Below, in pieces: positions 3,600 to 23,021 of a stretch of DNA of 64,000 nt (positions within the stretch are counted from its first letter, which is position 1; each line of letters opens with the position of its first letter). The DNA comes from a virus. The stretch lies in IMG/VR virus record IMGVR_UViG_3300021088_000009; one strand, given 5' to 3'. A program made the translations under genes and the position numbers. The notes under the pieces were generated by a model. It made no database searches and was not told where the DNA came from. It was given only the letters and a program-made list of their open reading frames with translations.

Positions 3600-3869
3600 A
3601 TGATGCGTGAGAAGGTGGCGGTGGTGGTGTTCGCGGAGGTGGACGCCGTGGATTTCACGGACGCGGCGTTCGCGGCGGAGCTGGCGGTGAGGCAAGCGCT
3701 GTATGCGGCTCAGGTGCCGGCCGATGACGGACGGATGTGTGTGACGGCGCAGTGGCCGCACATGTCGGTTCCGGTGTGGCTGGGGCGGATCGCGGAGTTG
3801 AACACGGCGCGGAATCTGTTGGTGGTGTTGCCGGCGGCGGCCGCGTTTAAGCCCCGGGAGGAGGAGTGA
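3600..3869 (+). CDS. hypothetical protein
   Basis: AAGGAGAAATG start context. 89 aa. Confidence 0.65.
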   Translation: MMREKVAVVVFAEVDAVDFTDAAFAAELAVRQALYAAQVPADDGRMCVTAQWPHMSVPVWLGRIAELNTARNLLVVLPAAAAFKPREEE

Positions 3870-4153
3870 GTGAGGGGTTGCCGGTGATTCCGGCGGGCTG
3901 GCCGGGCTGGTCGCTTCGGGGGAAGCCGATTTTCTATCGGCATCGCGGGGTGTGGGGGGTGTTGGGGCCGGAGAAGATGATGACGGTGGGTCGTGCGTTG
4001 TCGGTGGCTCGGGCGGGTCGTTCTCCGGTGGCGGTGATTGTGGGCCGGCCGGTGGCGCGGTATGTGCACACGGATGGCGCGGTGTGGTTGTTGTGCGATT
4101 TCGAGAACACGGGGCCCCCGACGGAGCGCAGCAGGGAGAGGCGGCGGTGGTGA
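3866..4153 (+). CDS. hypothetical protein
   Basis: GGAGGAGGA RBS followed by a GTG start. Overlaps the upstream stop by 4 nt. Confidence 0.55.
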   Translation: MSEGLPVIPAGWPGWSLRGKPIFYRHRGVWGVLGPEKMMTVGRALSVARAGRSPVAVIVGRPVARYVHTDGAVWLLCDFENTGPPTERSRERRRW

Positions 4154-13421: not shown

Positions 13422-13703
13422 ATGGCGTGGGATCGTCGCCGGTATGATTGGTTGCCGAAGTTTCCGGACGGCTGTCAGGTGTTTTACGCTGAGGATTCGG
13501 GCATGATCGTCGTGAACCGTGTCGGTAAGGACGTCACGACATGGGCGGTGCGGCCGCCGTTCTCGATCGTGTCGGAGTGCCCGTGGTGCGACACGATGGG
13601 AATGCATTTCATGTTCGAACCCGGCATAGAAAACCGTGACCCGACACAGCCGGTGATCGTGCGGGAATGCGCGTGTGGACGACAGTGGATGGAGCGCATG
13701 TGA
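13422..13703 (+). CDS. hypothetical zinc-finger protein
   Basis: ATG start. 93 aa. Carries the motifs CPWC...CACG. Confidence 0.6.
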   Translation: MAWDRRRYDWLPKFPDGCQVFYAEDSGMIVVNRVGKDVTTWAVRPPFSIVSECPWCDTMGMHFMFEPGIENRDPTQPVIVRECACGRQWMERM

Positions 13704-14287
13704 TGGAACCCCGTAGGGTGTTTTACGACACTGAGTTTATCGACGACGGCCGGACGATTCGGCTGATTTCGATTGGCATGGTGGACGAAGACGGTAACAC
13801 GTATTACGCCGTGGTGAACGACGTGGAGGTGATGCATGACGCGATGCGGCATCCGTGGTTGCCGGACAATGTGATGGTGCACCTTCCCGGGCGCGAGACA
13901 CACGGCACCGACGGTACGTGGTGGTGGAACTGGGATCGGGCGCACAAGGACTTTGACGCGGTGAAGCCCCGGGCGCAGATCGCGGCGGAGGTGGCCGTGT
14001 TCCTGCTCGCCCCCGGTGTGCCGGTGGAGTTGTGGGCCTGGTTCGCCGCCTACGACCACGTGGCCCTGTCCCAGCTGTTCGGGACCATGGTGGGGTTGCC
14101 GTCGGGGATCCCGATGTTCACGCACGAGTTGGTGCAACGGTGGAAGGAGTCGGGGCAGCCGGAGAAGCCGGTCCAGCACTCGGCGCACAACGCGTTGACG
14201 GATGCGTACTGGAACCGGGCGTTGTGGTTGCGGTGCGAGGCGGCCCGGTTCCCGCCGGTGTTGCGGCGGGGCGGCGGCCGGGGATGA
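13703..14287 (+). CDS. DEDDh 3'-5' exonuclease (RNase T/DnaQ-like)
   Basis: Exo I motif FYDTEFIDDG. Exo III motif HNALTDA. 194 aa. Confidence 0.7.
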   Translation: MEPRRVFYDTEFIDDGRTIRLISIGMVDEDGNTYYAVVNDVEVMHDAMRHPWLPDNVMVHLPGRETHGTDGTWWWNWDRAHKDFDAVKPRAQIAAEVAVFLLAPGVPVELWAWFAAYDHVALSQLFGTMVGLPSGIPMFTHELVQRWKESGQPEKPVQHSAHNALTDAYWNRALWLRCEAARFPPVLRRGGGRG

Positions 14288-14325: not shown

Positions 14326-14499
14326 ATGGGTGAGGACAGGTCGCCGGACCGGCACGGGTGGGCGTCTCGGGCGTTCGACGCGGTGGCGGAGTGGTTGTTG
14401 CCGGATCCGACGGCACGGGTGGAGCGTGCGTTGCGGGAGTTCAAGGCCCGTGAGCAGCGGGAACAGGGTCCTGACGAGAAACCTTCCCAGAAGGGTTGA
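14326..14499 (+). CDS. hypothetical 57-aa protein
   Basis: GGGAGGTG RBS, ATG start. High GC3. Its end overlaps promoter copy P6. Confidence 0.35.
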   Translation: MGEDRSPDRHGWASRAFDAVAEWLLPDPTARVERALREFKAREQREQGPDEKPSQKG

Positions 14500-14524
14500 C
14501 AACCCGGAAAGCCGTGGGTAATGT
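14485..14524 (+). promoter_or_regulatory. promoter copy P6 (heads the tRNA array)
   Basis: AGAAGGGTTGACAACCCGG with -35 at 14496-14501. -10 TAATGT at 14519-14524. Confidence 0.55.
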
Positions 14525-14584
14525 TCTCGGTGTCAGGACGGGAAGCACTCCCCCGGACAGGCACCAGCAAGGCGGACATGCTCA

Positions 14585-14665
14585 ACACAACTTCACTGAT
14601 GCGATCGCACTGGGTTACTTCAATTGGTGAAACAACACCTGGCGCATTCCGGTTCTCAGTGAAGC
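14585..14665 (+). repeat. tRNA-derived degenerate repeat, copy E (scrambled tRNA-Glu-like: TTCAATTGGTG...GGCGCATTCCGGTTCTCAG)
   Basis: Shares the D-loop, acceptor and anticodon-arm segments of tRNA-Glu(CTC) at 19573, but the arms do not pair. Confidence 0.45.
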
Positions 14666-14678: not shown

Positions 14679-14750
14679 GCACCCTTAGCTCAGCGGGAGA
14701 GCGGCTCTCTTACAAAGAGCGGGTCGGGAGTTCAATTCTCTCAGGGTGTA
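14679..14750 (+). tRNA. tRNA-Val(TAC)
   Basis: Manual fold. Acceptor stem gcaccct/agggtgt. Anticodon loop CTTACAA. T-loop TTCAATT. No encoded CCA. Confidence 0.7.
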
Positions 14751-14934
14751 CAAGGGGCCGACGTGATGCATGATGCGCGTCAACCATCACGTCGGTTCCG
14801 ATCCACAACTCCATGTTCTTGCGGTGCGGGCGTCAACGTCACCGAACCGGGTCATGGTGACCGGGGAGGATCGAAGATGCGGAGCGTTTACAAGCTTTGG
14901 CGCTGTGAAGTGTCTGCGCCCGCATCGCATACCT

Positions 14935-15007
14935 GGGCCTGTAGCTCATCTGGAAGAGCACCTGTTTTGCACACAGGGGGTGGCGGGTTCAAGTCCTGTC
15001 AGGTCCA
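14935..15007 (+). tRNA. tRNA-Ala(TGC)
   Basis: G3:U70 identity pair is present. Anticodon loop TTTGCAC. T-loop TTCAAGT. Confidence 0.75.
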
Positions 15008-15193
15008 CAACCGGGCGACCGGGATCTAACTGAATGAACTTCCATCAGCTGGTCAGTACACCTCGTAAGTCCTGCCTTGGTAGGCAAGCGGGTTAGGGCC
15101 AGCCACGCGGAAGGTGGGAGTGCAGGCCATCGGCTGAGGGCATGCGCACGAGCGAGGTCGGTGGGGACCAGACTCCAGACAACAACTCCATAT

Positions 15194-15266
15194 GCCACTG
15201 TAGCTCAGTCGGAAGAGCGCCTTACTTGTAATAAGGATGTCGCGGGTTCGAATCCTGTCTGTGGCT
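15194..15266 (+). tRNA. tRNA-Thr(TGT)
   Basis: D-arm TAGCTCAGTCGGAAGAGC. Anticodon loop CTTGTAA. One acceptor-stem mismatch at 6:67. Confidence 0.65.
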
Positions 15267-15288
15267 CGTTATACAACTACAACTACAT

Positions 15289-15359
15289 TGCCCGCTCGTT
15301 CAACGGCAGGACACCGGACTCTGACTCCGGGGATCTAGGTTCGAATCCTGGGTGGGCAG
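15289..15359 (+). tRNA. tRNA-Gln(CTG)
   Basis: U1:A72 pair. Anticodon loop CTCTGAC. T-loop TTCGAAT. Confidence 0.65.
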
Positions 15360-15397
15360 CGTTTGACAGTCTCGGTAGAGCATGGTAGCTTTAATCC

Positions 15398-15787
15398 ATG
15401 CCGCTAGCGGACAAGGAAAAGTACAATAACTACATGCGCGACTACATGAAACGCAGGTATCACCAGCGACGCGCAGAGGCAATCCAGCTTCTGGGCTCCC
15501 GGTGCGTTCAGTGTGGTACGACAGAAAACCTTGAAACCGATCACGTTGATCGGACAACTAAATCGTTTGATCTTGGCAAGCTTTGGTCAGTTGCTCGACA
15601 CCTTTACTTGGAAGAGTTGAAGAAGTGTCAACTACTGTGCGAGGATTGCCATAGGCGGAAATCTGCTTCCGAAATGTCGGTGTCTCACGGAGGCGGTATT
15701 TCCGGCAAGAAGAATTGCAAGTGTGAGCCTTGTCGGATCAAAAAGAGGGCTTACATGCGTAATTATAGGCGAGGGTCGGTATCCTAG
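15398..15787 (+). CDS. HNH endonuclease
   Basis: 129 aa. HNH motif elements CVQCG...ETDHV...CEDCHRRK. AT-richer codon usage than its surroundings. The 3' end overlaps the tRNA-Lys(TTT) gene. Start codon uncertain. Confidence 0.75.
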   Translation: MPLADKEKYNNYMRDYMKRRYHQRRAEAIQLLGSRCVQCGTTENLETDHVDRTTKSFDLGKLWSVARHLYLEELKKCQLLCEDCHRRKSASEMSVSHGGGISGKKNCKCEPCRIKKRAYMRNYRRGSVS

Positions 15788-15847
15788 TCTGGTTAAGGAA
15801 ACGAACTTTTAATTCGTGCGCCGTGGGTTCAAATCCCACCCGGCCTA
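15773..15847 (+). tRNA. tRNA-Lys(TTT)
   Basis: Anticodon loop CTTTTAA. T-loop TTCAAAT. Acceptor stem has two G-U pairs. Confidence 0.65.
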
Positions 15848-15852
15848 CTTGG

Positions 15853-15924
15853 TTCCCGTTGCTCTAATCGGCAAGAGACTGGATTTTGGTTCCGGGGATC
15901 TAGGTTCGAATCCTAGACGGGAAG
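15853..15924 (+). tRNA. tRNA-Gln(TTG)
   Basis: Perfect acceptor stem ttcccgt/acgggaa with U1:A72. Anticodon loop TTTTGGT. Confidence 0.65.
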
Positions 15925-15950
15925 CGTTAGTTCTACACCTACAACTACAT

Positions 15951-16025
15951 GCGCCGTTAGCTCAGGCCGGTCAGAGCTGGATACTCTTACTATTCAGGTC
16001 GGGGGTTCGAATCCCTCACGGCGTA
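15951..16025 (+). tRNA. tRNA-Lys(CTT)
   Basis: D-arm TAGCTCAGGCCGGTCAGAGC. Anticodon loop CTCTTAC. T-loop TTCGAAT. Confidence 0.65.
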
Positions 16026-16123
16026 CGTCACAGCCGGTTCGGCGGCTGCCCGTGGCCAACAGTTGCGACAGAGTGACATGGGGAAACGACAGTGGTATGA
16101 CGTCTACTGCCTAGTCCGAACAT

Positions 16124-16196
16124 GGGTCGGTAGCTCAGATGGTAGAGCACTCCCCTGAAAAGGGAGGGGCCGGTGGTTCGAGTCCACTCCTTCCCA
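16124..16196 (+). tRNA. tRNA-Phe(GAA), acceptor stem imperfect
   Basis: Anticodon stem-loop ctccc CTGAAAA gggag. T-loop TTCGAGT. Two acceptor-stem mismatches, so it may be a pseudogene. Confidence 0.5.
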
Positions 16197-16216
16197 CGCA
16201 CCACACACAATTACAT

Positions 16217-16291
16217 TGCGCGGTAACTCAGTCTGGTAAGAGTGCCGATCTGATACATCGGTGGCCCGTGGTTCAAATCCACGCCGCGCAA
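16217..16291 (+). tRNA. tRNA-Ile(GAT)
   Basis: Acceptor stem tgcgcgg/ccgcgca. Anticodon loop CTGATAC. T-loop TTCAAAT. Confidence 0.65.
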
Positions 16292-16399
16292 CGGGGACAC
16301 TGGAGAAATCGTCCATCCGGGCTTTAGTACCCGGTGTCCTACCAACTGAATGCCCTTGACTGCGGCGACTGTCTTTGACAACTCCATGAACACCTCGCG

Positions 16400-16445
16400 A
16401 TGCGAAGGATCGGGTTACTTCCGCTTCCATGTTAGCGGACTAGCT
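16400..16445 (+). repeat. tRNA-derived degenerate repeat (GATGCG...GGGTTACTTC family), copy A
   Basis: cgcgatgcgaaggatcGGGTTACTTCcgc. Related copies lie at 14585-14665, 16545-16665, 17180-17290 and 17295-17345. Confidence 0.5.
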
Positions 16446-16508
16446 CAATTGGTAGAGCGCCCCCCGATGAGGGGGGAGGTTCCGGGTTCGAGTCCCGGGT
16501 CTCATACC
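16434..16508 (+). pseudogene. tRNA-like pseudogene (anticodon arm CCCCCC-GATGAG-GGGGGG, acceptor stem unpaired)
   Basis: D-arm TAGCTCAATTGGTAGAGC and T-loop GGTTCGAGTCC are intact, but the anticodon loop is aberrant and the acceptor stem does not pair. Confidence 0.35.
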
Positions 16509-16544
16509 TGATTCGCCCGGTTCTCGTGAGGTCTCAAAGTTTTG

Positions 16545-16665
16545 AACGCCGTGTGATGCGTAGGAATGGGTTACTTCAAACTGAACATTTGGCGATCCGA
16601 GTTCGACTCTCGGCGGCTCCACTCGTGGGGCCGTGTGTGGACATAGTTTAACCTGGTCCGCTTGG
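16545..16665 (+). repeat. tRNA-derived degenerate repeat, copy B (orphan T-arm/acceptor GAGTTCGACTCTCGGCGGCTCCA)
   Basis: gtgtgatgcgtaggaatGGGTTACTTCaaactgaa...cgcttGGTTCTCacacgg. No matching 5' acceptor half. Confidence 0.5.
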
Positions 16666-16680
16666 TTCTCACACGGTTAA

Positions 16681-16752
16681 GCCGACGTAGCGCAGTGGTA
16701 GCGCAACACCTTGTCAGGGTGAAGGTCGCGGGTTCGACCCCCGTCGTTGGCG
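16681..16752 (+). tRNA. tRNA-Asp(GTC)
   Basis: Acceptor stem gccgacg/cgttggc. Anticodon loop TTGTCAG. T-loop TTCGACC. Confidence 0.7.
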
Positions 16753-16753
16753 C

Positions 16754-16942
16754 GTGCGTGTAACCACAATCGTGAATCCCGACAGCGGAGACGTTCGACT
16801 GATGTTGGACGGCAACCTGGTCGTGGAACTTCGCGGGGGCAACCCCGCCGGCCTGCTCCGGGAACTGGGCACAGCCATCAAGGACAGCGCCCGTGATGTT
16901 GAGCGGGTACGCACAAGGTTGGGTTACTCGAACAGGGGGTGA
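16754..16942 (+). CDS. hypothetical 62-aa protein embedded in the tRNA array
   Basis: ORF with GTG start immediately after tRNA-Asp. Decent GC3. Confidence 0.35.
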   Translation: MRVTTIVNPDSGDVRLMLDGNLVVELRGGNPAGLLRELGTAIKDSARDVERVRTRLGYSNRG

Positions 16943-16947
16943 CAAGC

Positions 16948-17106
16948 ATGGCGCATTCACCACACAAGCGGTGGAAAGGGTGCGCCATGTGCAAGGCGCA
17001 CAAGTTCAAGGACAACGGTCGTAGTGAGCGGGACCCGTTCCGTTACCTGCGGTTCGTGGGCAAGAGACGCCGGGTCAGTCGTCATGACCTGGGCGACCGG
17101 GTGTAG
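16948..17106 (+). CDS. hypothetical 52-aa basic Cys-containing peptide
   Basis: ATG start. Translation MAHSPHKRWKGCAMCKAHKFKDNGRSERDPFRYLRFVGKRRRVSRHDLGDRV. Its end overlaps the tRNA-Pro 5' end. Confidence 0.35.
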   Translation: MAHSPHKRWKGCAMCKAHKFKDNGRSERDPFRYLRFVGKRRRVSRHDLGDRV

Positions 17107-17173
17107 CTCAGTCAGGATAAAGAGTGCCTGTTTTGGGTACAGGATGCCGGGGGTTCGAATCCCTCCACCCGGA
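17097..17173 (+). tRNA. tRNA-Pro(TGG)
   Basis: Perfect acceptor stem ccgggtg/cacccgg. Anticodon loop TTTGGGT. T-loop TTCGAAT. Confidence 0.7.
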
Positions 17174-17179
17174 CTGGTT

Positions 17180-17400
17180 TCGATGCGCAGAGTTGGGTTA
17201 CTTCACAGGTTCGATTCCTCACGCCCCCACCCCTCGGGGGCGGCCACATGGGTGGTTTGTTCCTGGCTCGCTTGGTTCTCGAAACCTTTCAACGCGTGTG
17301 GTTCTGATGCGTAGACGCGGGATACTTCACTTAATCTGTGGGTTGCGGGTTCGAGTCCCGTCACCCCGCTTCAGGGGTGTAGCTCAAGTGGCAGAGCAAT
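17180..17400 (+). repeat. tRNA-derived degenerate repeats, copies C/D with orphan T-arms and an orphan 5' tRNA half (AGGGGTGTAGCTCAAGTGGCAGAGC)
   Basis: Two GATGCG..GGGTTACTTCA units. Orphan T-arms CAGGTTCGATTCC and GCGGGTTCGAGTCCCGTCACCCCGC. The 5' half is not followed by an anticodon arm. Confidence 0.5.
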
Positions 17401-17607
17401 AGAAGCAAGATACCTGTGTCGACTCGGTTCTCAGAACCACCTAGGATTCCCTTCGCGGGGAATGAGATGAGTGTATGGCCGTTGACTCTGAACAGTCGGC
17501 CACGGCGTACGCTGCGAAGTAGGCAAACGTAAGCCCTTATCCGGGTGCTGATACACTCGACAAGGCAATCGTAAGCCCTACGTTTGCACGTGGCGTGCGC
17601 CAACTAG

Positions 17608-17682
17608 AGCGGGGTGGCGCAATTCGGTTAGCGCGAGGGCCTCATAAGCCTTAGGTTGCCGGTTCAAATCCGGTCCCCGCCA
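17608..17682 (+). tRNA. tRNA-Met(CAT), initiator-like 1:72 mismatch
   Basis: Anticodon loop CTCATAA. T-loop TTCAAAT. A1·C72 mismatch, with the other six acceptor-stem pairs G-C. Confidence 0.6.
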
Positions 17683-17878
17683 CTAGAGGGGTAATGCTGG
17701 TTCAAATCCAGTCGGTGAAAACCTTCGGGTGATTAGCTGTCGGCTAATGGTAAGCCGCCTCTCGTTTTACCATCCGGCATGTTGGCCCGAGTGTCGGAGT
17801 TCGACCCCTAAGTGTGCGCACACAGGACGCGTCCCGTAATCACGGCACACGTGACGTTCATCGGGCTTCCACAATCAA

Positions 17879-17951
17879 TGGCCTATAGCTTAACTGGCAG
17901 AGCGGTGGATTGTTACTCCATCAGATCTTGGTTCGAATCCAAGTAGGTCAG
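17879..17951 (+). tRNA. tRNA-Asn(GTT)
   Basis: Acceptor stem tggccta/taggtca. Anticodon loop TTGTTAC. T-loop TTCGAAT. Confidence 0.65.
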
Positions 17952-18078
17952 CGTAGAATCCGTCAGCTTCCGGAGGTGTGACGGCTAGCTACCCAAGACC
18001 CACGCGGTCGACAACGGTACGGGGGTCGCTCCCCCTTGAAAAGGCCGGTGTCGTCATTGCCTCTCTGTCTTGGTCAAT

Positions 18079-18149
18079 GCGGGTGTAGTTTAATGGTAGA
18101 ACTAGTGCCTTCCAAGCAACAGGCCGGGGTTCGATTCCCCGTACCCGCT
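18079..18149 (+). tRNA. tRNA-Gly(TCC)
   Basis: T4-like D-loop TTTAATGGTAG. Anticodon loop CTTCCAA. T-loop TTCGATT. Anticodon stem is weak. Confidence 0.55.
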
Positions 18150-18213
18150 CTAGGCCCGCCAGCGGGTCTTCGTGCCCCCCGCTTACTGTGGCGGTGGTTG
18201 GGGGCACACCAAT

Positions 18214-18297
18214 GGAGGGTAGCGTCCGATGGTGGACATCCCGCCTCGAAAGCGGGTGCCGGGGGCAACCCCGAGGGTTCGACTCCTTTACCTTCCG
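18214..18297 (+). tRNA. tRNA-Ser(CGA)
   Basis: Perfect anticodon stem cccgc/gcggg with loop CTCGAAA. Long variable arm ccggggGCAAccccg. T-loop TTCGACT. Confidence 0.65.
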
Positions 18298-18605
18298 CGC
18301 CGGGGACCGTCATAAATTGTCAAGGCCCAGTGTCCCGCGATACCCAAGGGACCAGTTTCGATGCGGCTGCGACGGTAAGCACGGATAAGCTGTGAACCCA
18401 AATATCCGAACCTAGGCGGAATGGGTGAGCTGAAACGGGTCGCGTACGGGCCCGCCCCCGCACCACTTCGTGTGAATATGCTCTGGGTCCCGAGGGCCTT
18501 AACTGGTCGGGATACAACACTTGCTAGTAGCACAGCATGCCCCCATGGCCATGGGGGAGTCTGGGCGGGGAAGTAACCGGTCGCCCGGAGTCCACACACG
18601 AAAAT

Positions 18606-18690
18606 GGAAGATTGCCAGAGTCTGGCCGATTGGGCGTCACTGCTAATGACGTGGGCCTCGGTCCCAAGGGTTCGAATCCCTTATCTTCCG
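18606..18690 (+). tRNA. tRNA-Ser(GCT)
   Basis: Perfect acceptor stem ggaagat/atcttcc. Anticodon stem-loop cgtca CTGCTAA tgacg. Long variable arm. T-loop TTCGAAT. Confidence 0.7.
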
Positions 18691-18691
18691 C

Positions 18692-18835
18692 GTGACCGAA
18701 GAGAAGAAGGTCAGAACGTCCGGGGGTGTTCCACTCACGGACGAGTTGCTGGACAAGTTGGCGGAGGAAGCTGAAGCCGGATACGATCCGGCCAAGTTGA
18801 AGCCGCGTAAGAAGAACACCGAAAAGAAGAAGTAA
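18692..18835 (+). CDS. hypothetical 47-aa protein (motif SGGVPLTDELLDKLAEEAEAGYD, RHH/antitoxin-like)
   Basis: GTG start 2 nt after tRNA-Ser. Lys-rich C-terminus. The motif resembles small actinobacterial RHH/antitoxin-like proteins, but that is an inference. Confidence 0.45.
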   Translation: MTEEKKVRTSGGVPLTDELLDKLAEEAEAGYDPAKLKPRKKNTEKKK

Positions 18836-18909
18836 CCCTCTCTAGCTCAACAGGACAGAGCGCCCCATTCCTAACGGGTAGGTTCGGGGTTCGATTCCCC
18901 GGAGGGGGA
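18836..18909 (+). tRNA. tRNA-Arg(CCT)
   Basis: C1:G72 pair. Anticodon loop TTCCTAA. T-loop TTCGATT. Same body as the neighbouring Arg(CCG). Anticodon stem has two mismatches. Confidence 0.5.
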
Positions 18910-18915
18910 CGTTAA

Positions 18916-18989
18916 CCCGCTTTAGCTCAATAGGACAGAGCACCGGTTTCCGAAGCCGGAGGTTCAGGGTTCGATTCCCTGGAGTGGGA
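18916..18989 (+). tRNA. tRNA-Arg(CCG)
   Basis: Perfect anticodon stem ccggt/gccgg with loop TTCCGAA. T-loop TTCGATT. Confidence 0.65.
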
Positions 18990-18990
18990 C

Positions 18991-19067
18991 GGTGGCTGTC
19001 GCCCAATTGGCCGGGAGCCAGATTGTGAGTCTGGATGATGCGGGTTCGAGTCCCGTCAGTCACCCCA
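18991..19067 (+). tRNA. tRNA-His(GTG) with encoded G-1 and 3' CCA
   Basis: Extra 5' G precedes acceptor stem gtggctg/cagtcac. Discriminator C. CCA is encoded. Anticodon stem-loop ccaga TTGTGAG tctgg. Confidence 0.75.
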
Positions 19068-19083
19068 AACTTAAGGAAATAAC

Positions 19084-19347
19084 GTGACTGAGCGCGCGGA
19101 GTTTCCACACTGCGACATGCGTATCTTGCACGCTCCGGGTGAGTGCGAGTATTGCGAAGAATATTCGGACTGGCAGGATCTGCGGAAGCGGTGGGGTATT
19201 GCCTTTACCGGGCATGAACCGCAAGAAGTACGTGTGTCGGGTACGCTGATCGCACGGGAGCTTCCGTGTCCAGCCGATTTCAACCGGCCGCCGTCCAGTT
19301 CCTCGGATCACCGTCAGTGGCCTGGTAACACGCCGGAAGGGTACTGA
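19084..19347 (+). CDS. hypothetical Cys-rich protein embedded in the tRNA array
   Basis: AAGGAAAT RBS followed by a GTG start. 87 aa. Carries the motifs HCDMRILHAPGECEYCEE. Confidence 0.5.
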   Translation: MTERAEFPHCDMRILHAPGECEYCEEYSDWQDLRKRWGIAFTGHEPQEVRVSGTLIARELPCPADFNRPPSSSSDHRQWPGNTPEGY

Positions 19348-19351
19348 CTAA

Positions 19352-19425
19352 GCCCTGGTAGCTCAGCTGGATAGAGTGCCACGCTACGAACGTGGAAGTC
19401 GGGGGTTCAAGTCCCTCTCAGGGTA
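19352..19425 (+). tRNA. tRNA-Arg(ACG)
   Basis: D-arm TAGCTCAGCTGGATAGAGT. Anticodon stem-loop ccacg CTACGAA cgtgg. T-loop TTCAAGT. Confidence 0.7.
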
Positions 19426-19572
19426 CGTTGCACACCGTTCGTTCTTTCGCAAGAAGATCCCGGTACGTGGTTTCCGATGTAGCCAACGACACTCAGACTG
19501 TCGCTCTGGCGGTTACCACCCCTTGACGGAGAGGGACCCGAGTGAAGTCCGTCGTCCGGTGTGCACACCTAC

Positions 19573-19645
19573 GGCGCATTAGTTCAATTGGCGGAACGTC
19601 CGGTTCTCAGCCGGGAGGTTGTGGGTTCGAGTCCCACATGCGCTA
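19573..19645 (+). tRNA. tRNA-Glu(CTC)
   Basis: Acceptor stem ggcgcat/atgcgct. Anticodon stem-loop tccgg TTCTCAG ccggg. T-loop TTCGAGT. Confidence 0.65.
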
Positions 19646-19788
19646 CGTATCGGCTAGTGGGATAGCCCCGTAGGATCGCAACCCACGGGCTAGACGCAGA
19701 GGTGACGGCCACCTGGGAGTCCCTGGGCTGTCTCTCGCTGGTGAACGGTCAGGGACTCCCGACCGGACACCGGGAAGCTATCCATCAT

Positions 19789-19862
19789 GGTCCCTTAGCC
19801 CAATGGCAGGAGGCACTCCGCTCAAAACGGGGACAGTGTGCGTTCGAATCGCACAGGGACTA
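19789..19862 (+). tRNA. class-I tRNA with anticodon CAA (Leu anticodon on a Gln/Glu-type body, short variable arm)
   Basis: Acceptor stem ggtccct/agggact. D-arm gcc-CAATGGCAGGA-ggc. Anticodon stem-loop ctccg CTCAAAA cgggg. Variable region is only 5 nt. T-loop TTCGAAT. Confidence 0.55.
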
Positions 19863-19875
19863 CGCAGTGCAGTAT

Positions 19876-19948
19876 GGCCCGTTGGAGTAATAGGAAGCTC
19901 ACCTGACTTTCATTCAGGAGTGTGCGGGTTCGAGCCCCGTACGGGCTA
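19876..19948 (+). tRNA. tRNA-Glu(TTC)
   Basis: Perfect anticodon stem cctga/tcagg with loop CTTTCAT. T-loop TTCGAGC. Confidence 0.65.
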
Positions 19949-20051
19949 CGTCTACCGGTTAAATGAATTGAATCAGCCTTCGGGTGCCGGGACTGTGAAG
20001 CGGGGAGCGTGGGAGGGTCCGCCGTGCCGACTAGGGATGAGGTCGGCCCAT

Positions 20052-20123
20052 TCCGTACAGCGTTGGTTGTGCCGGCGGGCCTGTAAAGCCCTCCCGTGTG
20101 TGGTTCGAATCCACCGTGCGGAA
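20052..20123 (+). tRNA. possible tRNA-Tyr(GTA), class-I-like
   Basis: Acceptor stem tccgtac/gtgcgga. Anticodon loop CTGTAAA. T-loop TTCGAAT. Short variable region and weak D-arm. Confidence 0.4.
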
Positions 20124-20219
20124 CGATCACCGGGGTTAATCAGGGTGTCCCTGGTGATTGCGGTGAGACAAGTAGGAACGGCGCAGTAAGCGCGGGTGTT
20201 GTGGTAGCGCCCGCGTCAT

Positions 20220-20295
20220 GCTCCCTTAGCCCAACTTTGGCAGAGGCGTCCGGTTCAGGTCCGGGAGGTTGAGAGTTCGAATCTCTCAGGGAGTA
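20220..20295 (+). tRNA. class-I tRNA with anticodon CAG (Leu anticodon, short variable arm)
   Basis: Acceptor stem gctccct/agggagt. Anticodon stem-loop tccgg TTCAGGT ccggg. Variable region AGGTT. T-loop TTCGAAT. Confidence 0.55.
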
Positions 20296-20305
20296 CGTTT
20301 GTTAT

Positions 20306-20380
20306 GCACCTATAGCCCAACCAGGCAGAGGCGTCACCTTGAGGTGGTGGAGGTTCCGGGTTCGAATCCCGGTAGGTGTA
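20306..20380 (+). tRNA. class-I tRNA with anticodon GAG (Leu anticodon, short variable arm)
   Basis: Acceptor stem gcaccta/taggtgt. Anticodon stem-loop tcacc TTGAGGT ggtgg. Variable region AGGTT. T-loop TTCGAAT. Confidence 0.55.
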
Positions 20381-20507
20381 CTGGGCGCGGTACCTTTCTC
20401 TCCGGTGCCAGGTTGCGAAAAGCCGCGCCCTCCTTTCTCGTTCCGGAGCCATCGGATGAGAAACGGCGTCCGTGCCCTGTTGGCTTGATGGGGGGCACGG
20501 GCGTTAT

Positions 20508-20578
20508 GGCGGATTGACCGAGAGGCTAGGTGGCAGCCTGCAAAGCTGCTCACGGGAGTTCGAGTCTCCCATTCGCCT
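20508..20578 (+). tRNA. tRNA-Cys(GCA)
   Basis: Acceptor stem ggcggat/attcgcc. Perfect anticodon stem gcagc/gctgc with loop CTGCAAA. T-loop TTCGAGT. Confidence 0.6.
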
Positions 20579-20640
20579 CGGAAGTGCTGTAGGCCATTCG
20601 CTTCGGGGATCCTAGGAACCCTCGCGCGATGGGGAAGCAC

Positions 20641-20678
20641 GCGATAACTGAAAGCCTTGAAGGTTATCGCTTTGTGTG
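20641..20678 (+). terminator. hairpin plus T-run (candidate intra-array terminator or processing site)
   Basis: Stem gcgataac/gttatcgc followed by TTTGTGTG. Confidence 0.35.
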
Positions 20679-20746
20679 CGCGGATGGATGTAGGCTTCCT
20701 GCCGGTTTCGCACACTAGGACGCCAACGAAGTGGGAGCCAACTTTT

Positions 20747-20815
20747 GCCGGGGCTACTGGCTGTAGACAGCGGATTCCAAACCCGCTAGGCAGGGTTCAA
20801 TTCCTTGGTCCGGTG
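20747..20815 (+). ncRNA. tRNA-like element: possible tRNA-Trp(CCA), or the tRNA-like module of a Y-RNA
   Basis: T-arm caggg TTCAATT ccttg. Anticodon-like loop TTCCAAA. Acceptor pairing is imperfect and the element is unusually short at 69 nt. Lies about 340 nt upstream of the Ro60 gene on the same strand. Confidence 0.35.
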
Positions 20816-20925
20816 CTCAGCGGCCGTCAGCTGTGATGACGGTATGGCTACCTATCGGCCTGATCAGGTAGGGCTAATCCGGGGGTTGCCCGGGTGCCGG
20901 GGAGCGTCGGCTATAACCGCTCACG

Positions 20926-20977
20926 AGAGGTGTTCACATGCCAGCTAGCCCCCGGCGTGTGGACACCTCTTTTTTGT
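20926..20977 (+). terminator. strong rho-independent terminator ending the tRNA array
   Basis: Stem agaggtgttcaca/tgtggacacctct followed by TTTTTT. Confidence 0.75.
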
Positions 20978-20999
20978 TGACCAACACCAAGGAGTGCGC

Positions 21000-21152
21000 A
21001 TGTCCGAAGAGATGATCACCATTCCGATGGCGCGACACGCCGAACTGGTCGAAGCCGAACACCTCCTGTCCGCGCTGGAAGCGGCCGGCGTCGACAACTG
21101 GGAAGGCTACGACCACGCCATGGAGATCATGCGCAGCGAAGGAGGGAACTAA
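21000..21152 (+). CDS. hypothetical 50-aa acidic protein
   Basis: AAGGAG RBS, ATG start. Lies directly upstream of the Ro60 gene. Confidence 0.55.
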   Translation: MSEEMITIPMARHAELVEAEHLLSALEAAGVDNWEGYDHAMEIMRSEGGN

Positions 21153-21155
21153 CCC

Positions 21156-22907
21156 ATGTCGAAGTTCAACCAGAAGACGCCCGACGTGTTCGGCCGTGTC
21201 GGCGCGGGAGCGGGATCCTCCCCGATCGTCGTGGACCGGCGCGCGTCGGCACGCACTTTCGAGGGTGCGCCGTCGTTCGCGCGGTCCGACCGTGGCCAGC
21301 TGTTCCTCACGTGCACGGCCGGGTTCATCGCCGAGGACAAGTTCTACGAGACCGGCGACGCCACGGTGAACCGGGTGCGGGAGTTGACCGCATCCATCGC
21401 GACCGAGACCCGACCGCGTCAGAAGCTGGCCGGCGCGTTCACGGGGAAGTCCGTGGACGTCAAGACCGGCCGTGTGCATTCCGATGACATCGACACCGGC
21501 GCGGCATGGTTGACGCCGTTCATCAACTGGGCCCGGCGCGTCGGCAACGTGCGCACCGCGCCCATCGTCGTCGCCTGCGAGGCGGTGCACGCACGGTTGA
21601 AGGCCGGCATCAACGGCGGCAACCGCGAGATGCTCCGCGCACCGCTGGCCCGGGCCGACGAGCCGGGCGAGATGGTCGCGTACTGGCGGGCCCGGTTCGG
21701 CCGCGCGATCCCCATGTGCATGAAGCGCGCCATCGGGGACGTGCTCCCGCAGTTGTACACGGAGTACTCGGCGTTGAAGTACGACACCGCCGCGCATGCG
21801 GTGCGGTTCGGTGACGTCGTGGACATCGTCCACCCGACCGACGCGGCGACCCCGGCACGGAACGCGTTCTACCGGTGGCTGATGGACCGCCGTCACCGGC
21901 GGGACAACGCGACCGCCAGCGCGGCTGGTCACCTCCCGATGATCGTCGCCCGTGCCCAGTTGGAGACGATCCCGGTCGCGGACCGGCGTGCCCTGGTGGG
22001 TTCGGCTGACCTGGACACGTGGATGCGGAACGCGGGCATGACGTGGGAGTCGCTGTCCGGGTGGCTGTCGGACGGTGGCGGCATGGACGCGGCCGCGTGG
22101 GAGGCCATCATCCCGAACATGGGATACATGGCGTTGTTGCGGAACCTCCGCAACTTTGACCAGGCCGGCGTGTCCGATGAGGTCGCCGGGCTGATTGCGA
22201 CGAAGCTCGCTAACCCGGGCGAGGTGGCGCGGTGCAAGCAATTCCCGTTCCGGTTCCTGTCCGCGTTGCGTCAGGTGCCGTCGTTGCGGTGGGGTCACGC
22301 GCTGGACAAGGCGTTGACGTTGTCCACGGGGAACGTGCCGGTGCTGGACGGGCGGACGTTGATCCTGGTGGACACGTCGGGGTCGATGGGCAACCCGATG
22401 TCGGGGAAGTCGAACGTGTCCTGTGTGGACGCGGCCACGGTGTTCGGTGTGGCGTTGGCGTTCCGGAATCGGGGGAACGTGGACCTGGCGGGGTGGGCTA
22501 CGGGCACGTATGAGCAGACCATCACGCGGGGTGGGTCGCTGATCAGCGAGGTGAAGAAGTTCACCGAGCGCGCCGGGTCGGTGGGTCACGGGACGGATCT
22601 GGGTCAGGCGTTGGCGAAGACGTTCCGGCGTGGGGAGCACGCGCGGGTGTTCGTGTTCTCGGACATGCAGTTGATGGGATCGAGCTGGTACGGCGGCGCG
22701 GATGCGGTCAACCGGTATGTGCCGGCGGAGGTGCCGGTGTACTCGTGGAACCTGATGGGGTACGCGGGTGCGATGACGGCGGGCACGAACCGGCATGAGC
22801 TGGGCGGCCTGACGGACGCGACGTTCCGTCTGGTGCCGACGATCGAGGCGGCGCAGACCGGGGTGTGGCCGTGGGAGTTGGACGCGGCGGAGGTGTTGTC
22901 GCGGTAG
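21156..22907 (+). CDS. rsr: Ro60-like TROVE-domain protein with C-terminal vWA/MIDAS domain (Rsr orthologue)
   Basis: 583 aa. GAAGGAGGG RBS. N-terminal TROVE-like region. C-terminal MIDAS motif in LILVDTSGSMGNP. This domain order is characteristic of Ro60/Rsr. Confidence 0.7.
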   Translation: MSKFNQKTPDVFGRVGAGAGSSPIVVDRRASARTFEGAPSFARSDRGQLFLTCTAGFIAEDKFYETGDATVNRVRELTASIATETRPRQKLAGAFTGKSVDVKTGRVHSDDIDTGAAWLTPFINWARRVGNVRTAPIVVACEAVHARLKAGINGGNREMLRAPLARADEPGEMVAYWRARFGRAIPMCMKRAIGDVLPQLYTEYSALKYDTAAHAVRFGDVVDIVHPTDAATPARNAFYRWLMDRRHRRDNATASAAGHLPMIVARAQLETIPVADRRALVGSADLDTWMRNAGMTWESLSGWLSDGGGMDAAAWEAIIPNMGYMALLRNLRNFDQAGVSDEVAGLIATKLANPGEVARCKQFPFRFLSALRQVPSLRWGHALDKALTLSTGNVPVLDGRTLILVDTSGSMGNPMSGKSNVSCVDAATVFGVALAFRNRGNVDLAGWATGTYEQTITRGGSLISEVKKFTERAGSVGHGTDLGQALAKTFRRGEHARVFVFSDMQLMGSSWYGGADAVNRYVPAEVPVYSWNLMGYAGAMTAGTNRHELGGLTDATFRLVPTIEAAQTGVWPWELDAAEVLSR

Positions 22908-22912
22908 GCGAA

Positions 22913-22947
22913 GGGGGAACGGTCGTGAGGGCCGTTTCCCCTTTTCC
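22913..22947 (+). terminator. rho-independent terminator
   Basis: Hairpin ggggaacgg...ccgtttcccc followed by TTTTCCC. Confidence 0.5.
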
Positions 22948-22956
22948 CGCCACAAC

Positions 22957-22994
22957 TTCAAGGAGTTGACTACCCGGGAACTCTCGGGTAGGGT
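22957..22994 (+). promoter_or_regulatory. promoter copy P7
   Basis: TCAAGGAGTTGACTACCCGGG with -35 at 22966-22971. -10 TAGGGT at 22989-22994. Confidence 0.55.
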
Positions 22995-23021
22995 TCTCGT
23001 CAGACCAAAGGAGGCCCGGAG

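What the first reader, a model, noticed from the sequence alone, without database searches (positions are those of the whole stretch)
20580..22907. Phage-encoded Ro60/TROVE-vWA (Rsr) orthologue with a possible Y-RNA-like partner adjacent to the tRNA array
The gene at 21156-22907 encodes 583 aa with an N-terminal TROVE-like region and a C-terminal vWA/MIDAS motif (DTSGSM). This is the Ro60/Rsr architecture. Bacterial and phage Rsr proteins are known to work with Y RNAs that carry a tRNA-like module and are encoded next to rsr. The 350 nt between tRNA-Cys and the strong terminator at 20926-20977 contain hairpins plus a 69-nt tRNA-like element (20747-20815) with T-arm, pseudo-anticodon TTCCAAA and imperfect acceptor, ending in TGGTCCGG. 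That is what a YrlA-type Y RNA might look like. A Ro RNP embedded in a tRNA-rich region suggests a phage-borne RNA quality-control or tRNA-surveillance module.
Basis: partly seen in the sequence, partly recalled or inferred. Interest (0 to 1): 0.8.

Follow-up and report, generated by a model that had tools for sequence, protein, structure and literature searches.

The report
Phage Ro60 with five Y RNAs
The gene is a genuine phage copy of the Ro60 RNA-binding protein, but the proposed partner RNA beside it is an odd tryptophan tRNA; the likely partners are five Y-RNA genes 3.7-6.6 kb upstream inside the phage's tRNA cluster, a variant of an arrangement already known.

Summary
ORF 21156-22907 is a Ro60/Rsr orthologue. 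It has a Pfam TROVE hit, an intact vWA MIDAS motif, and an AlphaFold model that matches solved Ro60 rings, best of all Thermus phage phiLo Ro60.

It is a standard-order cloverleaf with compensatory changes in all four arms, an invariant CCA anticodon and a G discriminator. ARAGORN calls its homologues tRNA-Trp in two related contigs, and it supplies the Trp that the array otherwise lacks. Its D arm is minimal and its acceptor imperfect.

Y RNAs do exist, elsewhere. Five co-oriented modules lie inside the tRNA array: Ya 14591-14664, Yb 16392-16532, Yc 16548-16677, Yd 17176-17286 and Ye 17298-17440. All share one covarying frame (basal stem, UGCG-N-AG loop, stem II, UUACUUC ... CCUG ... GGUUC).
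- Ye is a sub-threshold Rfam YrlA hit (46 bits).
- A model of the frame hits just upstream of rsr, on the same strand, in about 49 of 80 actinobacterial loci and 6 of 9 other phage loci.

The spacer 20580-20745 is a family-restricted, covarying, pseudoknotted RNA of unknown function.

Phage Ro60 with Y RNAs is already known (Chen 2014; Hu 2025). This is a divergent variant of moderate interest.

The parts
21156..22907 (+). rsr: Ro60/Rsr orthologue, 583 aa (TROVE HEAT-repeat ring plus C-terminal vWA domain)
   Evidence: Pfam TROVE 8.4e-16 and VWA_2 4.2e-5. AF2 model has pLDDT 82 and pTM 0.83. Foldseek matches phiLo Ro60 9kop/9l5y at E 1e-17 to 1e-15, Xenopus Ro60 1yvp at TM 0.68/0.74, and D. 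radiodurans Rsr 2nvo at E 9e-11. 5705 homologues were found, many named TROVE or RNA-binding protein.
22371..22385 (+). MIDAS motif D406-T-S408-G-S410; the completing residues T480 and D503 lie further downstream
   Evidence: These residues are invariant in a 41-sequence alignment. The vWA domain matches appear in the fold search.
14591..14664 (+). Ya: short Y-RNA-like module (frame only), first RNA of the array, 14 nt before tRNA-Val
   Evidence: Regex plus basal-stem check. Frame model R1 scores 47.2 bits, E 1e-10. Syntenic in L010-L012, L015, L016 and L018.
16392..16532 (+). Yb: Y frame enclosing a tRNA-like domain in the order 5' hairpin, D arm, variable anticodon-like hairpin, T arm. ARAGORN miscalls part of it as tRNA-His(atg), 16434-16508
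   Evidence: The RNAalifold consensus has compensatory changes. The 'anticodon' loop differs in sequence and length between relatives, and no tRNA is called there in L011, L015 or L016.
16548..16677 (+). Yc: Y frame with a T arm and an acceptor-like hairpin. The D arm is degenerate here but intact in L010, L011 and L016. It ends 3 nt before tRNA-Asp
   Evidence: ARAGORN miscalls the homologues as tRNA-Asn(att), Ser(act) or Phe.
17176..17286 (+). Yd: Y-RNA-like module that starts 2 nt after tRNA-Pro. It is short (73-75 nt) in most relatives; here and in L010 it carries an insertion with a T-arm-like hairpin
   Evidence: R1 scores 58.5 bits, E 7e-14. Alignment and coordinates.
17298..17440 (+). 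Ye: YrlA-type Y RNA made of the frame, stem III, a T arm, an acceptor-like hairpin and a D arm
   Evidence: Rfam YrlA RF02553 scores 46.1 bits, E 6e-8 to 3e-9, at 17315-17422. The RNAalifold consensus has 12 compensatory pairs. It lies 3.7 kb upstream of rsr on the same strand.
20747..20815 (+). It has a 6-bp acceptor plus a G.G mismatch, a 4-bp D stem with a 5-nt loop, the anticodon loop UUCCAAA, the T loop UUCAAUU and discriminator G
   Evidence: Alignment A1. Pair counts show 96.1% paired, against 38-47% for slid controls, with compensatory changes in all four arms. ARAGORN calls tRNA-Trp in L014 5615-5682 and L017 1769-1836. No other Trp tRNA is present in the array.
20580..20745 (+). Block A: a conserved structured RNA of unknown function between tRNA-Cys and tRNA-Trp. 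Helices are H1 20584-20588:20636-20640, H2 20641-20649:20662-20670, H4 20674-20680:20709-20715 and H3 20690-20699:20733-20742. H4 and H3 cross, forming a pseudoknot
   Evidence: RNAalifold finds 9 compensatory pairs. The pseudoknot is 96% paired, against 22-48% for slid controls. It is absent from L018. No homologue was found outside the family.
20927..20975 (+). Intrinsic terminator closing the tRNA/Y-RNA array: a 16-bp stem, an 11-nt loop and T6
   Evidence: Sequence and MFE fold. It is conserved in all relatives with compensatory changes. The consensus scanner misses it because its loop exceeds 8 nt.
14496..14524 (+). Promoter-like TTGACA, 17 nt, TAATGT, about 65 nt upstream of Ya. This is a candidate start for the array transcript
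   Evidence: It is conserved in position and sequence in 7 contigs. It does not pass the strict sigma-70 scan, so it remains an inference.
14679..20579 (+). tRNA array. ARAGORN makes 27 calls, one of which is Yb. An atypical tRNA-Tyr(GUA) at about 20051-20123 is missed. With that Tyr and the Trp element at 20747-20815, just past this interval, all 20 amino acids are covered

Best explanation
The window comes from a high-GC (about 65%), actinophage-like genome. It carries a Ro60/Rsr gene and, upstream, an array of about 28 tRNAs with five Y-RNA genes (Ya-Ye) interleaved.

Each Y RNA has the same Ro-binding-type module. The 5' and 3' ends pair into an 8-10 bp basal stem that ends in YGA:UC. Next comes an asymmetric internal loop, 5' UGCG-N-AG opposite 3' ...GGUUC. 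Then comes an 8-bp stem II ending in GGG:CCUG, followed by an invariant WUACUUC.

Ya is the frame alone. Yd is the same in most relatives but here carries a T-arm-like insertion. Yb, Yc and Ye carry tRNA-like domains. Ye and Yc have the YrlA order (T arm, acceptor-like hairpin, D arm). Yb has the opposite order (D arm, anticodon-like hairpin, T arm).

Inferred steps:
- The array is transcribed from a conserved promoter-like site near 14496 and ends at the terminator at 20927-20975.
- The Y RNAs are released by the enzymes that process the flanking tRNAs. Yd abuts tRNA-Pro and Yc abuts tRNA-Asp.
- The Y RNAs bind the phage Rsr. By analogy with the D. radiodurans and S. Typhimurium Ro60-Y RNA-PNPase ('RYPER') complex and with phiLo Ro60, the RNP tethers or gates a 3'-5' exoribonuclease such as host PNPase, and so reshapes RNA decay in the infected cell.

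The 166 nt before it are a separate pseudoknotted RNA of unknown role that is restricted to this phage family.
For: Protein:
- TROVE HMM above cut-off and an intact MIDAS motif.
- The Ro60 ring fold matches phage, frog, human and Deinococcus structures.

Y RNAs:
- Rfam YrlA hits Ye at E about 1e-8. That score is equal to or better than the scores of YrlAs that sit right upstream of rsr in actinobacteria, which are 32-54 bits.
- Five modules share one frame. Across 35 sequences, 94.6% of cells are paired, against 33-45% in slid controls. 11 of 17 pairs show compensatory change, and the covariation score is 0.69 against 0.08-0.15.
- The same five modules lie at syntenic positions in 8 related contigs.
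- The frame model R1 finds nothing else in the 64 kb.
- R1 hits about 49 of 80 actinobacterial rsr loci. Every hit is on the rsr strand, 100-700 nt upstream of the start codon.
- R1 also hits 6 of 9 IMG/VR phage loci that were fetched by Rsr homology alone.
- The 5' motif alone retrieves 120 IMG/VR stretches. 26 of them encode an Rsr homologue next to the match.

tRNA-Trp.

Precedent: phage Ro60 binds phage-encoded Y-like RNAs and host PNPase (PMC12135203). Y RNAs were reported in 22 phages, within 4 kb of Ro on the same strand (PMC4201824).
Against: - No expression, binding or processing data exist for this phage. All of the function is by analogy.
- Ye is below Rfam's gathering score (46.1 against 69), and the other four modules are not detected by Rfam at all.
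- Ya, Yb and Yc lie 4.5-6.6 kb from rsr, beyond the 4-kb rule of Chen et al.
- A strong terminator separates the array from rsr, so the two are not one operon.
- The published GNCGAA(N)G motif is present only in a variant form, UGCG-N-AG.
- The promoter-like site fails the strict sigma-70 scan.
- The tRNA-Trp has no canonical D loop, a single linker nucleotide where tRNAs have positions 8-9, and a mismatch at the base of the acceptor. Aminoacylation is therefore unproven.
Confidence: 0.8

Rival explanations
1. One reading: the element at 20747-20815, with or without the flanking hairpins in 20580-20935, is a YrlA-type Y RNA bound by the adjacent Rsr.
For: It lies immediately upstream of rsr on the same strand, which is where Y RNAs sit in bacteria and in other phages. 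It is tRNA-like with a good T arm. Its shape is atypical for a tRNA.
Against: It has no YrlA hit and no Y frame, even with filters off. Its arm order is the standard cloverleaf, not the permuted one. It has no 5'/3' stem with an internal loop. Its CCA anticodon, U33, A37 and G discriminator are invariant. Its homologues are called tRNA-Trp. It fills the only amino-acid gap in the array apart from Tyr.
Confidence: 0.05
2. The Trp-like cloverleaf is a non-decoding tRNA mimic. It might be a decoy for a host anticodon nuclease or tRNA-binding factor, or merely an RNase P/Z processing handle that releases block A.
For: The D loop is only 3-5 nt. One nucleotide stands in for positions 8-9. There is a G.G mismatch at the base of the acceptor and an A.C at the 31:39 pair in 7 of 9 sequences. 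ARAGORN and the Rfam tRNA model reject the window copy. It directly follows a structured RNA.
Against: The anticodon loop and the bacterial tRNA-Trp identity elements (CCA, G73) are conserved (identity rules are from general knowledge). All four arms covary. In L018 it persists without block A. The array's tRNA-Tyr is also atypical, so this phage family tolerates odd tRNAs.
Confidence: 0.15
3. The five framed modules are not Ro ligands. They are processing, stability or regulatory elements of the tRNA array, or decaying tRNA pseudogenes. Their link with rsr is only synteny.
For: They are embedded among tRNAs, and three contain tRNA-like arms. No binding data exist. A terminator separates them from rsr.
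Against: The same frame is found directly upstream of rsr in about 49 of 80 actinobacterial chromosomal loci with no tRNA array nearby, always on the rsr strand. It is also found next to rsr in diverse phages. Ye matches the curated YrlA model as well as the bacterial YrlAs do. The strong covariation is not what pseudogenes show.
Confidence: 0.07
4. Block A (20580-20745) is an additional, non-canonical Rsr ligand or substrate mimic that occupies the position next to rsr where Y RNAs sit in other genomes.
For: Its position is immediately upstream of rsr. It has a conserved pseudoknotted fold. A CGAAG or GUAAAG segment lies next to helix H3.
Against: It lacks the Y frame. No homologue was found in 74 other rsr loci. 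It is missing from L018, which keeps rsr and all five Y RNAs. The CGAA segment is not conserved between the two sequence variants.
Confidence: 0.1

Closest known systems
Thermus phage phiLo Ro60 with Yrl1/Yrl2 (Hu et al., NAR 2025, PMC12135203; PDB 9KOP, 9L5Y)
   Same: A phage-encoded Ro60 with a HEAT ring and vWA domain; it is the best structural match to the model and the best sequence match in the PDB. The phage also encodes Y-like RNAs with a 5'/3' stem and an internal loop carrying a CGAA-type motif. The proposed action is through host PNPase.
   Different: Only about 20% identity. phiLo has two Yrls directly upstream of the gene. Here there are five, 3.7-6.6 kb away, interleaved with tRNAs and separated from rsr by a terminator. 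Three of them carry tRNA-like domains. No biochemistry exists for this phage.
Bacterial and mycobacteriophage YrlA/YrlB (Chen et al., RNA 2014, PMC4201824; Rfam RF02553)
   Same: Ye and Yc have the YrlA layout: a Ro-binding stem plus a T arm, an acceptor-like hairpin and a D arm. Ya and Yd resemble YrlB, a frame with at most a T-arm-like hairpin. They lie on the same strand as rsr. Ye scores like the actinobacterial YrlAs.
   Different: The scores are below Rfam's gathering threshold. The frame motif is UGCG-N-AG ... WUACUUC rather than GNCGAA(N)G. There are five copies, dispersed in a tRNA array. Yb has the opposite arm order.
Deinococcus radiodurans Rsr-Yrn1-PNPase (RYPER)
   Same: A Ro ring plus a Y RNA that tethers an exoribonuclease; this is the mechanistic template. 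Per the text of PMC4201824, Yrn1 has its D-like and T-like arms in the order D, anticodon-like, T. Yb has the same order.
   Different: Yrn1's Ro-binding helix resembles the metazoan one. Yb uses the same frame as the YrlA-type modules of this phage. Rsr identity is about 18%.
'Ro-like RNA binding protein' genes of cultured actinophages (Arthrobacter phage Atuin, Streptomyces phage BRock and the Satis/Kradal group, Gordonia phage VanLee)
   Same: The same protein family, at 34-39% identity. In BRock the gene also sits inside a tRNA array, and the same Y frames lie in an unannotated 580-nt gap upstream.
   Different: There is no nucleotide similarity. In those phages the Y modules directly precede the gene.

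Membership tests
Ro60/Rsr (TROVE-vWA ring protein) | TROVE domain detected by the curated HMM | tested here: met
   PF05731 at E 8.4e-16, 58.6 bits against a cut-off of 23. The homologues carry precomputed PF05731.
Ro60/Rsr (TROVE-vWA ring protein) | C-terminal vWA domain with MIDAS DxSxS...T...D | tested here: met
   VWA_2 scores 24.6 bits, just below the cut-off of 27. D406, S408, S410, T480 and D503 are invariant. vWA structures are matched.
Ro60/Rsr (TROVE-vWA ring protein) | Overall fold of the solved Ro60 rings | tested here: met
   AF2 pTM is 0.83. Foldseek matches over the whole length to 9kop, 9l5y, 1yvp, 2i91, 9nep and 2nvo, at E 1e-17 to 1e-10 and TM 0.57-0.75.
Ro60/Rsr (TROVE-vWA ring protein) | Binds Y RNA or misfolded RNA | not testable with these tools
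   Needs RIP or EMSA.
YrlA-type Y RNA (RF02553): module Ye, 17298-17440 | Reaches Rfam's gathering score | tested here: not met
   46.1 bits against 69. However, YrlAs directly upstream of actinobacterial rsr score only 32-54 bits, and none of 15 such loci reaches the gathering score.
YrlA-type Y RNA (RF02553): module Ye, 17298-17440 | tRNA-like domain in the order T arm, acceptor-like hairpin, D arm | tested here: met
   cmscan alignment. The RNAalifold consensus has covariation in stem III, the T arm and the hairpin.
Y RNA in general: modules Ya-Ye | The 5' and 3' ends pair into a stem interrupted by a conserved internal loop (the Ro-binding module) | tested here: met
   The frame is 94.6% paired across 35 sequences, with 11 of 17 pairs compensatory.
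Y RNA in general: modules Ya-Ye | The published 5' motif GNCGAA(N)G or 'CGAA' | tested here: inconclusive
   The loop reads UGCGAAG in Yb but UGCG(U/C)AG or UGCGAUC in the others. This is a variant, not an exact match.
Y RNA in general: modules Ya-Ye | Encoded near rsr on the same strand (Chen et al.: within 4 kb) | tested here: met
   All five are on the + strand. Ye and Yd lie 3.7-4.0 kb from rsr. Ya, Yb and Yc lie 4.5-6.6 kb away, outside the 4-kb rule. The homologous frame lies 100-700 nt upstream of rsr in bacteria.
Y RNA in general: modules Ya-Ye | Stable transcript bound by Ro60 | not testable with these tools
   No transcriptome or RIP data are available.
   No YrlA hit at E up to 10. 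R1 with filters off gives a best score of 6.9 bits. The arm order is standard, not permuted.
   ARAGORN does not call it in the window, nor in 6 of the 8 relatives, but does call tRNA-Trp(cca) in L014 and L017. The Rfam tRNA models are below threshold.
   It has 6 bp plus a G.G mismatch, a single linker nucleotide, and a D loop of 3-5 nt.
   Needs charging assays.

The most novel reading that the evidence does not exclude
This phage family runs a Ro ribonucleoprotein system that is built into its own tRNA supply.
- Five Y RNAs with two opposite tRNA-mimic topologies share one Ro-binding frame.
- They are co-transcribed with, and cut out of, a 20-amino-acid tRNA array.
- That array also contains minimal-D-arm Trp and short Tyr tRNAs and a family-specific pseudoknotted RNA.
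- The array is flanked by phage-encoded 3'-5' exonucleases: an Rv2179c-like gene upstream and an RNase T-like gene downstream.

On this reading the Rsr-Y RNPs would police or protect phage tRNAs, for example against host tRNA-targeting defences or misfolded array products, rather than only hijack PNPase.
Probability: 0.15. Interest if true: 0.75.

Novelty: new variant of a known kind. Interest (0 to 1): 0.45.

Why it matters
Ro60 with Y RNAs is a conserved but poorly understood RNA-surveillance system. Phage versions have only just begun to be studied (phiLo, 2025). Three points matter here.
- **A sharper Y-RNA signature.** The frame (YGA-UGCG-N-AG ... GGG-WUACUUC ... CCUG ... GUUCUC) finds Y RNAs beside rsr in many actinobacteria and phages that the curated Rfam model misses at its threshold. 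It also explains several false tRNA calls in phage arrays, such as 'tRNA-His(atg)', 'Tyr(ata)' and 'Asn(att)'.
- **Two tRNA mimics on one frame.** A single genome carries both the YrlA-type and the opposite tRNA-mimic arm order on the same Ro-binding frame. This bears on whether the two kinds arose independently.
- **Possible coupled production.** Y RNAs placed inside a tRNA array suggest that they are made and processed together with the tRNAs.

None of this overturns current views.

Tried and rejected
- **Nucleotide search.** Megablast of 17000-23000 against 50,697 phage records gave no match, so no annotated close relative exists.
- **Rfam at gathering score.** Over the whole window it returns only tRNAs. 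On 15 bacterial rsr loci it returns no YrlA, so the threshold is too strict for this clade.
- **Strict phage 5' motif on bacteria.** It matches 0 of 80 bacterial rsr loci, because bacteria have GGUGCG where the phages have GAUGCG. The covariance model was needed.
- **M. smegmatis probes.** I compared the published YrlA/YrlB Northern-probe sequences with the window. The best alignments score no better than shuffled probes, so I do not use that resemblance.
- **Block A.**
  - It has no Rfam family.
  - An IMG/VR pattern scan found only its own family plus one chance coding hit.
  - Model R2 found nothing in 74 other loci.
  - I considered HDV-like and other ribozymes, tmRNA pieces and a divergent Y RNA. 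I rejected them on topology and the lack of hits.
  - I found no consistent pairing between its loops and the tRNA-Trp.
- **Promoter scan.** The strict sigma-70 scan found no site. The conserved TTGACA-17-TARTGT is reported only as promoter-like.
- **Exonuclease linkage.** The Rv2179c-like exonuclease as an obligatory Ro partner: it co-occurs with rsr outside the family in only 2 of the other phage loci held, so the link is weak.
- **R1 and long inserts.** R1 cannot span long inserts, so Yb, Yc and Ye appear only as fragments. Their full extent rests on the regex plus basal-stem check and on RNAalifold.


Full report
**1. What is at the coordinates**

The ORF 21156-22907 (+) encodes 583 aa.
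- It hits Pfam TROVE (PF05731) at E 8.4e-16 and 58.6 bits, above the cut-off of 23. It hits VWA_2 at 24.6 bits, just below the cut-off of 27.
- DTSGSM lies at residues 406-411. In a 41-sequence alignment D406, S408, S410, T480 and D503 are invariant, which makes a complete MIDAS motif DxSxS...T...D.
- An AlphaFold2 model (pLDDT 82, pTM 0.83) matches solved Ro60 proteins over its whole length. These are Thermus phage phiLo Ro60 (9kop, 9l5y; E 1e-17 to 1e-15), Xenopus Ro60 (1yvp; TM 0.68/0.74), human Ro60 and D. radiodurans Rsr (2nvo; E 9e-11). Isolated vWA domains follow in the list.
- phmmer against PDB sequences also puts phiLo Ro60 first.
- Cultured-phage relatives are annotated 'Ro-like RNA binding protein', at no more than 39% identity. 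There is no nucleotide-level relative among 50,697 phage records.

**2.

The 69-nt element at 20747-20815 exists. It is conserved in eight syntenic metagenomic contigs whose Rsr is 58-78% identical (L010-L018).

It folds as a cloverleaf in the standard tRNA arm order.
- Acceptor: 6 bp plus a G.G mismatch.
- D arm: a 4-bp stem with a 3-5-nt loop.
- Anticodon arm: a 5-bp stem with the loop YUCCAAA.
- T arm: a 5-bp stem with the loop UUCRAUU.
- Discriminator: G.

On the nine-sequence alignment 96.1% of cells are paired, against 38-47% when the 3' partners are slid. Every arm shows at least one compensatory change.

Other evidence points the same way.
- ARAGORN calls the homologues in L014 and L017 tRNA-Trp(cca).
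- The window's array has no other Trp tRNA.
- The only other 'missing' amino acid, Tyr, is supplied by an atypical short tRNA-Tyr(GUA) at about 20051-20123. ARAGORN misses it here but calls it in relatives.
- Rfam gives no YrlA hit in 20570-21000 at E up to 10.
- My Y-frame model finds nothing there with filters off.

The caveat is that this tRNA is atypical: it has a minimal D arm, a single nucleotide where positions 8-9 should be, and an A.C at the 31:39 pair in 7 of 9 sequences. Whether it is charged cannot be decided here.

**3. Where the Y RNAs are**

Rfam's YrlA model hits 17315-17422 (+) at 46.1 bits, E 6e-8 to 3e-9. The T arm, acceptor-like hairpin and D arm align very well.

Aligning the tRNA-Pro to tRNA-Met spacers of all relatives showed two tandem elements with a common frame. 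A search for the frame with a basal-stem check found five modules in the window, all on the + strand inside the tRNA array:
- Ya 14591-14664
- Yb 16392-16532
- Yc 16548-16677
- Yd 17176-17286
- Ye 17298-17440

The same five lie at syntenic positions in the relatives, where the contig reaches far enough.

The frame has four parts.
- A basal stem of 8-10 bp that ends in YGA:UC.
- An internal loop, 5' UGCG-N-AG opposite 3' (CG)NNN-GGUUC.
- Stem II, 8 bp, ending in GGG:CCUG.
- An invariant WUACUUC.

On 35 frames, with the variable insert replaced by GAAA, 94.6% of cells are paired against 33-45% in slid controls. 11 of 17 pairs carry compensatory changes. The covariation score is 0.69 against 0.08-0.15.

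The inserts differ between modules.
- Ya and most Yd copies are short, like YrlB.
- Ye has stem III, a T arm, an acceptor-like hairpin (7 bp in most relatives) and a D arm.
- Yc is similar, but its D arm is degenerate in the window.
- Yb has a 5' hairpin, a D arm, a variable anticodon-like hairpin and a T arm.

ARAGORN's 'tRNA-His(atg)' at 16434-16508 is the inside of Yb. Its 5' 'acceptor' strand pairs instead with an upstream segment, with compensatory changes. The 'anticodon' differs between relatives (atg, ata or none). No tRNA is called there in L011, L015 or L016.

**4. Are these really Y RNAs?**

A covariance model of the frame (R1) finds only these five modules in the 64-kb window.

I then ran R1 on 80 actinobacterial rsr loci that were fetched by protein similarity alone. 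It gave about 49 hits with E below 0.02. Every hit is on the rsr strand and lies 100-700 nt upstream of the rsr start. The bacterial consensus is CCGGUGCGAAGG..CGGGUUACUUC...CCUG..CCG....GUUCUCGG.

In seven of these loci Rfam places a YrlA hit of 32-54 bits between the R1 hit and rsr. This gives the arrangement short Y RNA, YrlA, rsr. It also shows that the window's 46 bits is typical for the clade and that the gathering score of 69 is too strict.

Two further tests agree.
- R1 hits upstream of rsr in 6 of 9 IMG/VR phage loci fetched by Rsr homology.
26 of them encode an Rsr homologue beside the match, usually a few hundred nucleotides downstream on the same strand. One of these contigs (L092) has the same length as Streptomyces phage BRock, and the BRock GenBank record shows an unannotated 580-nt gap upstream of its Ro-like gene.

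This positional association across bacteria and phages is the main argument that the frame is the Ro-binding module. Binding itself is not shown.

**5.

20580-20745 ('block A') is conserved in 7 of 8 relatives. It has four helices with compensatory changes. Two of them, H4 (20674-20680:20709-20715) and H3 (20690-20699:20733-20742), cross to form a pseudoknot.
- It has no Rfam match and no Y frame.
- It has no homologue in 74 other rsr loci and none in IMG/VR outside the family.
- It is absent from L018, which keeps rsr, tRNA-Trp and all five Y RNAs.

Its function is unknown. Its flanks suggest release by processing of tRNA-Cys and tRNA-Trp, which is an inference.

20816-20925 is variable between relatives. 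The hairpin at 20927-20969 plus T6 is a conserved terminator.

**6. How it probably works**

Shown here:
- a Ro60 orthologue;
- five covarying Y-type modules on the same strand;
- homology of their frame to elements next to rsr elsewhere;
- tRNA-like domains in three of the modules.

Inferred:
- The array is transcribed from the conserved TTGACA-17-TAATGT at 14496-14524 (it does not pass the strict scan) and ends at the terminator.
- The Y RNAs are liberated by RNase P/Z-type processing. Yd starts 2 nt after tRNA-Pro and Yc ends 3 nt before tRNA-Asp.
- Rsr binds the frame.
- The RNP tethers or gates a 3'-5' exoribonuclease. This follows the pattern in D. radiodurans and S. Typhimurium (PMC4201824) and in phiLo, where phage Ro60 and its Yrls bind host PNPase and dampen it (PMC12135203).

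I put about 0.8 on the identity claims and about 0.4 on the PNPase-type mechanism.

**7. Comparison and novelty**

Phage Ro60 with phage Y RNAs is known: 22 phages in Chen et al. 2014, and phiLo in 2025. This case differs in four ways.
- The protein is very divergent.
- There are five Y genes rather than one or two.
- They are dispersed within a tRNA array, 3.7-6.6 kb from rsr and behind a terminator.
- One shared frame carries both the YrlA arm order and the opposite order. The text of PMC4201824 describes that opposite order for Yrn1 and treats it as independently evolved.

I found no description of this arrangement in the searchable literature. I rate it a new variant of a known kind, of moderate interest.

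**8. Context**

The window is about 65% GC. Synteny in the family runs as follows: SNF2 helicase, Rv2179c-like 3'-5' exoribonuclease, tRNA/Y array, a gp5.9-like RecBCD inhibitor or another small ORF, rsr, sometimes Bro-N, DinG-like helicase, RNase T-like exonuclease, Band_7. The exoribonuclease next to the array is suggestive, but it is only weakly linked to rsr outside the family.

Noticed in passing
window 16434-16508: ARAGORN's 'tRNA-His(atg)' (Rfam tRNA 39.9 bits) is the tRNA-like interior of Y RNA Yb, not a tRNA. Homologues are miscalled Tyr(ata) or His(atg), or are not called at all. Yc homologues are miscalled Asn(att), Ser(act) or Phe.
   Followed up: yes
window ~20051-20123: An atypical short tRNA-Tyr(GUA) with no long variable arm. 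ARAGORN misses it in the window but calls it (72 nt) in seven relatives. Rfam gives only a weak tRNA-Sec-like hit (23.8 bits).
   Followed up: partly
window 17441-17607: A conserved structured spacer between Ye and tRNA-Met. It has a long-range hairpin (GGCGUACGC...GCGUGCGCC) and a repeated CGUAAGCCC. It is present in most relatives and is possibly another ncRNA.
   Followed up: no
window 21000-21152: A 50-aa ORF directly upstream of rsr matches Pfam Phage_T7_Gp5_9 (RecBCD inhibitor) at E 1e-16. It is present in the window, L010 and L018. L011, L015 and L016 have an unrelated 70-90-aa ORF in its place.
   Followed up: partly
window 13667-14287: An Rv2179c-like 3'-5' exoribonuclease (Pfam 1.2e-12) lies immediately upstream of the array's promoter-like site. 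It is conserved in all family contigs and is also near rsr in L122 and L125.
   Followed up: partly
window 15398-15787: A 129-aa Cys/His-rich ORF sits inside the tRNA array, between tRNA-Gln and tRNA-Lys. It has no Pfam hit and looks like a small HNH- or zinc-ribbon-type protein. Other small ORFs lie in array gaps at 16754-16942, 16939-17106 and 19084-19347.
   Followed up: partly
window 14531-14590: A leader of about 60 nt between the promoter-like site and Ya (GUGUCAGGACGGGAAGCACUCCCCCGGACAG...) is almost invariant across relatives.
   Followed up: no
L142-L221 (actinobacterial rsr loci), about 3300-3950: Most loci carry a 73-92-nt Y-frame element followed by a sub-threshold YrlA (32-54 bits) just upstream of rsr. 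Rfam's YrlA gathering score of 69 misses all of those tested.
   Followed up: partly
L141 (Streptomyces phage BRock KX925554) 1921-2500: An unannotated 580-nt gap upstream of the Ro-like gene gp191, inside a tRNA array. The BRock-length IMG/VR contig L092 carries tandem Y-frame modules at this position.
   Followed up: partly
L086 6642-6874 and 1748-1828: A manA-RNA-like hit (47.8 bits, below the gathering score) and a tmRNA-like hit lie inside the tRNA array of another Rsr-encoding phage contig.
   Followed up: no
window 21156-22907, aa ~85-112: The phage-family Rsr carries an insertion of about 30-50 residues relative to the bacterial homologues (583 aa against about 527). The AlphaFold model has low confidence there.
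   Followed up: no
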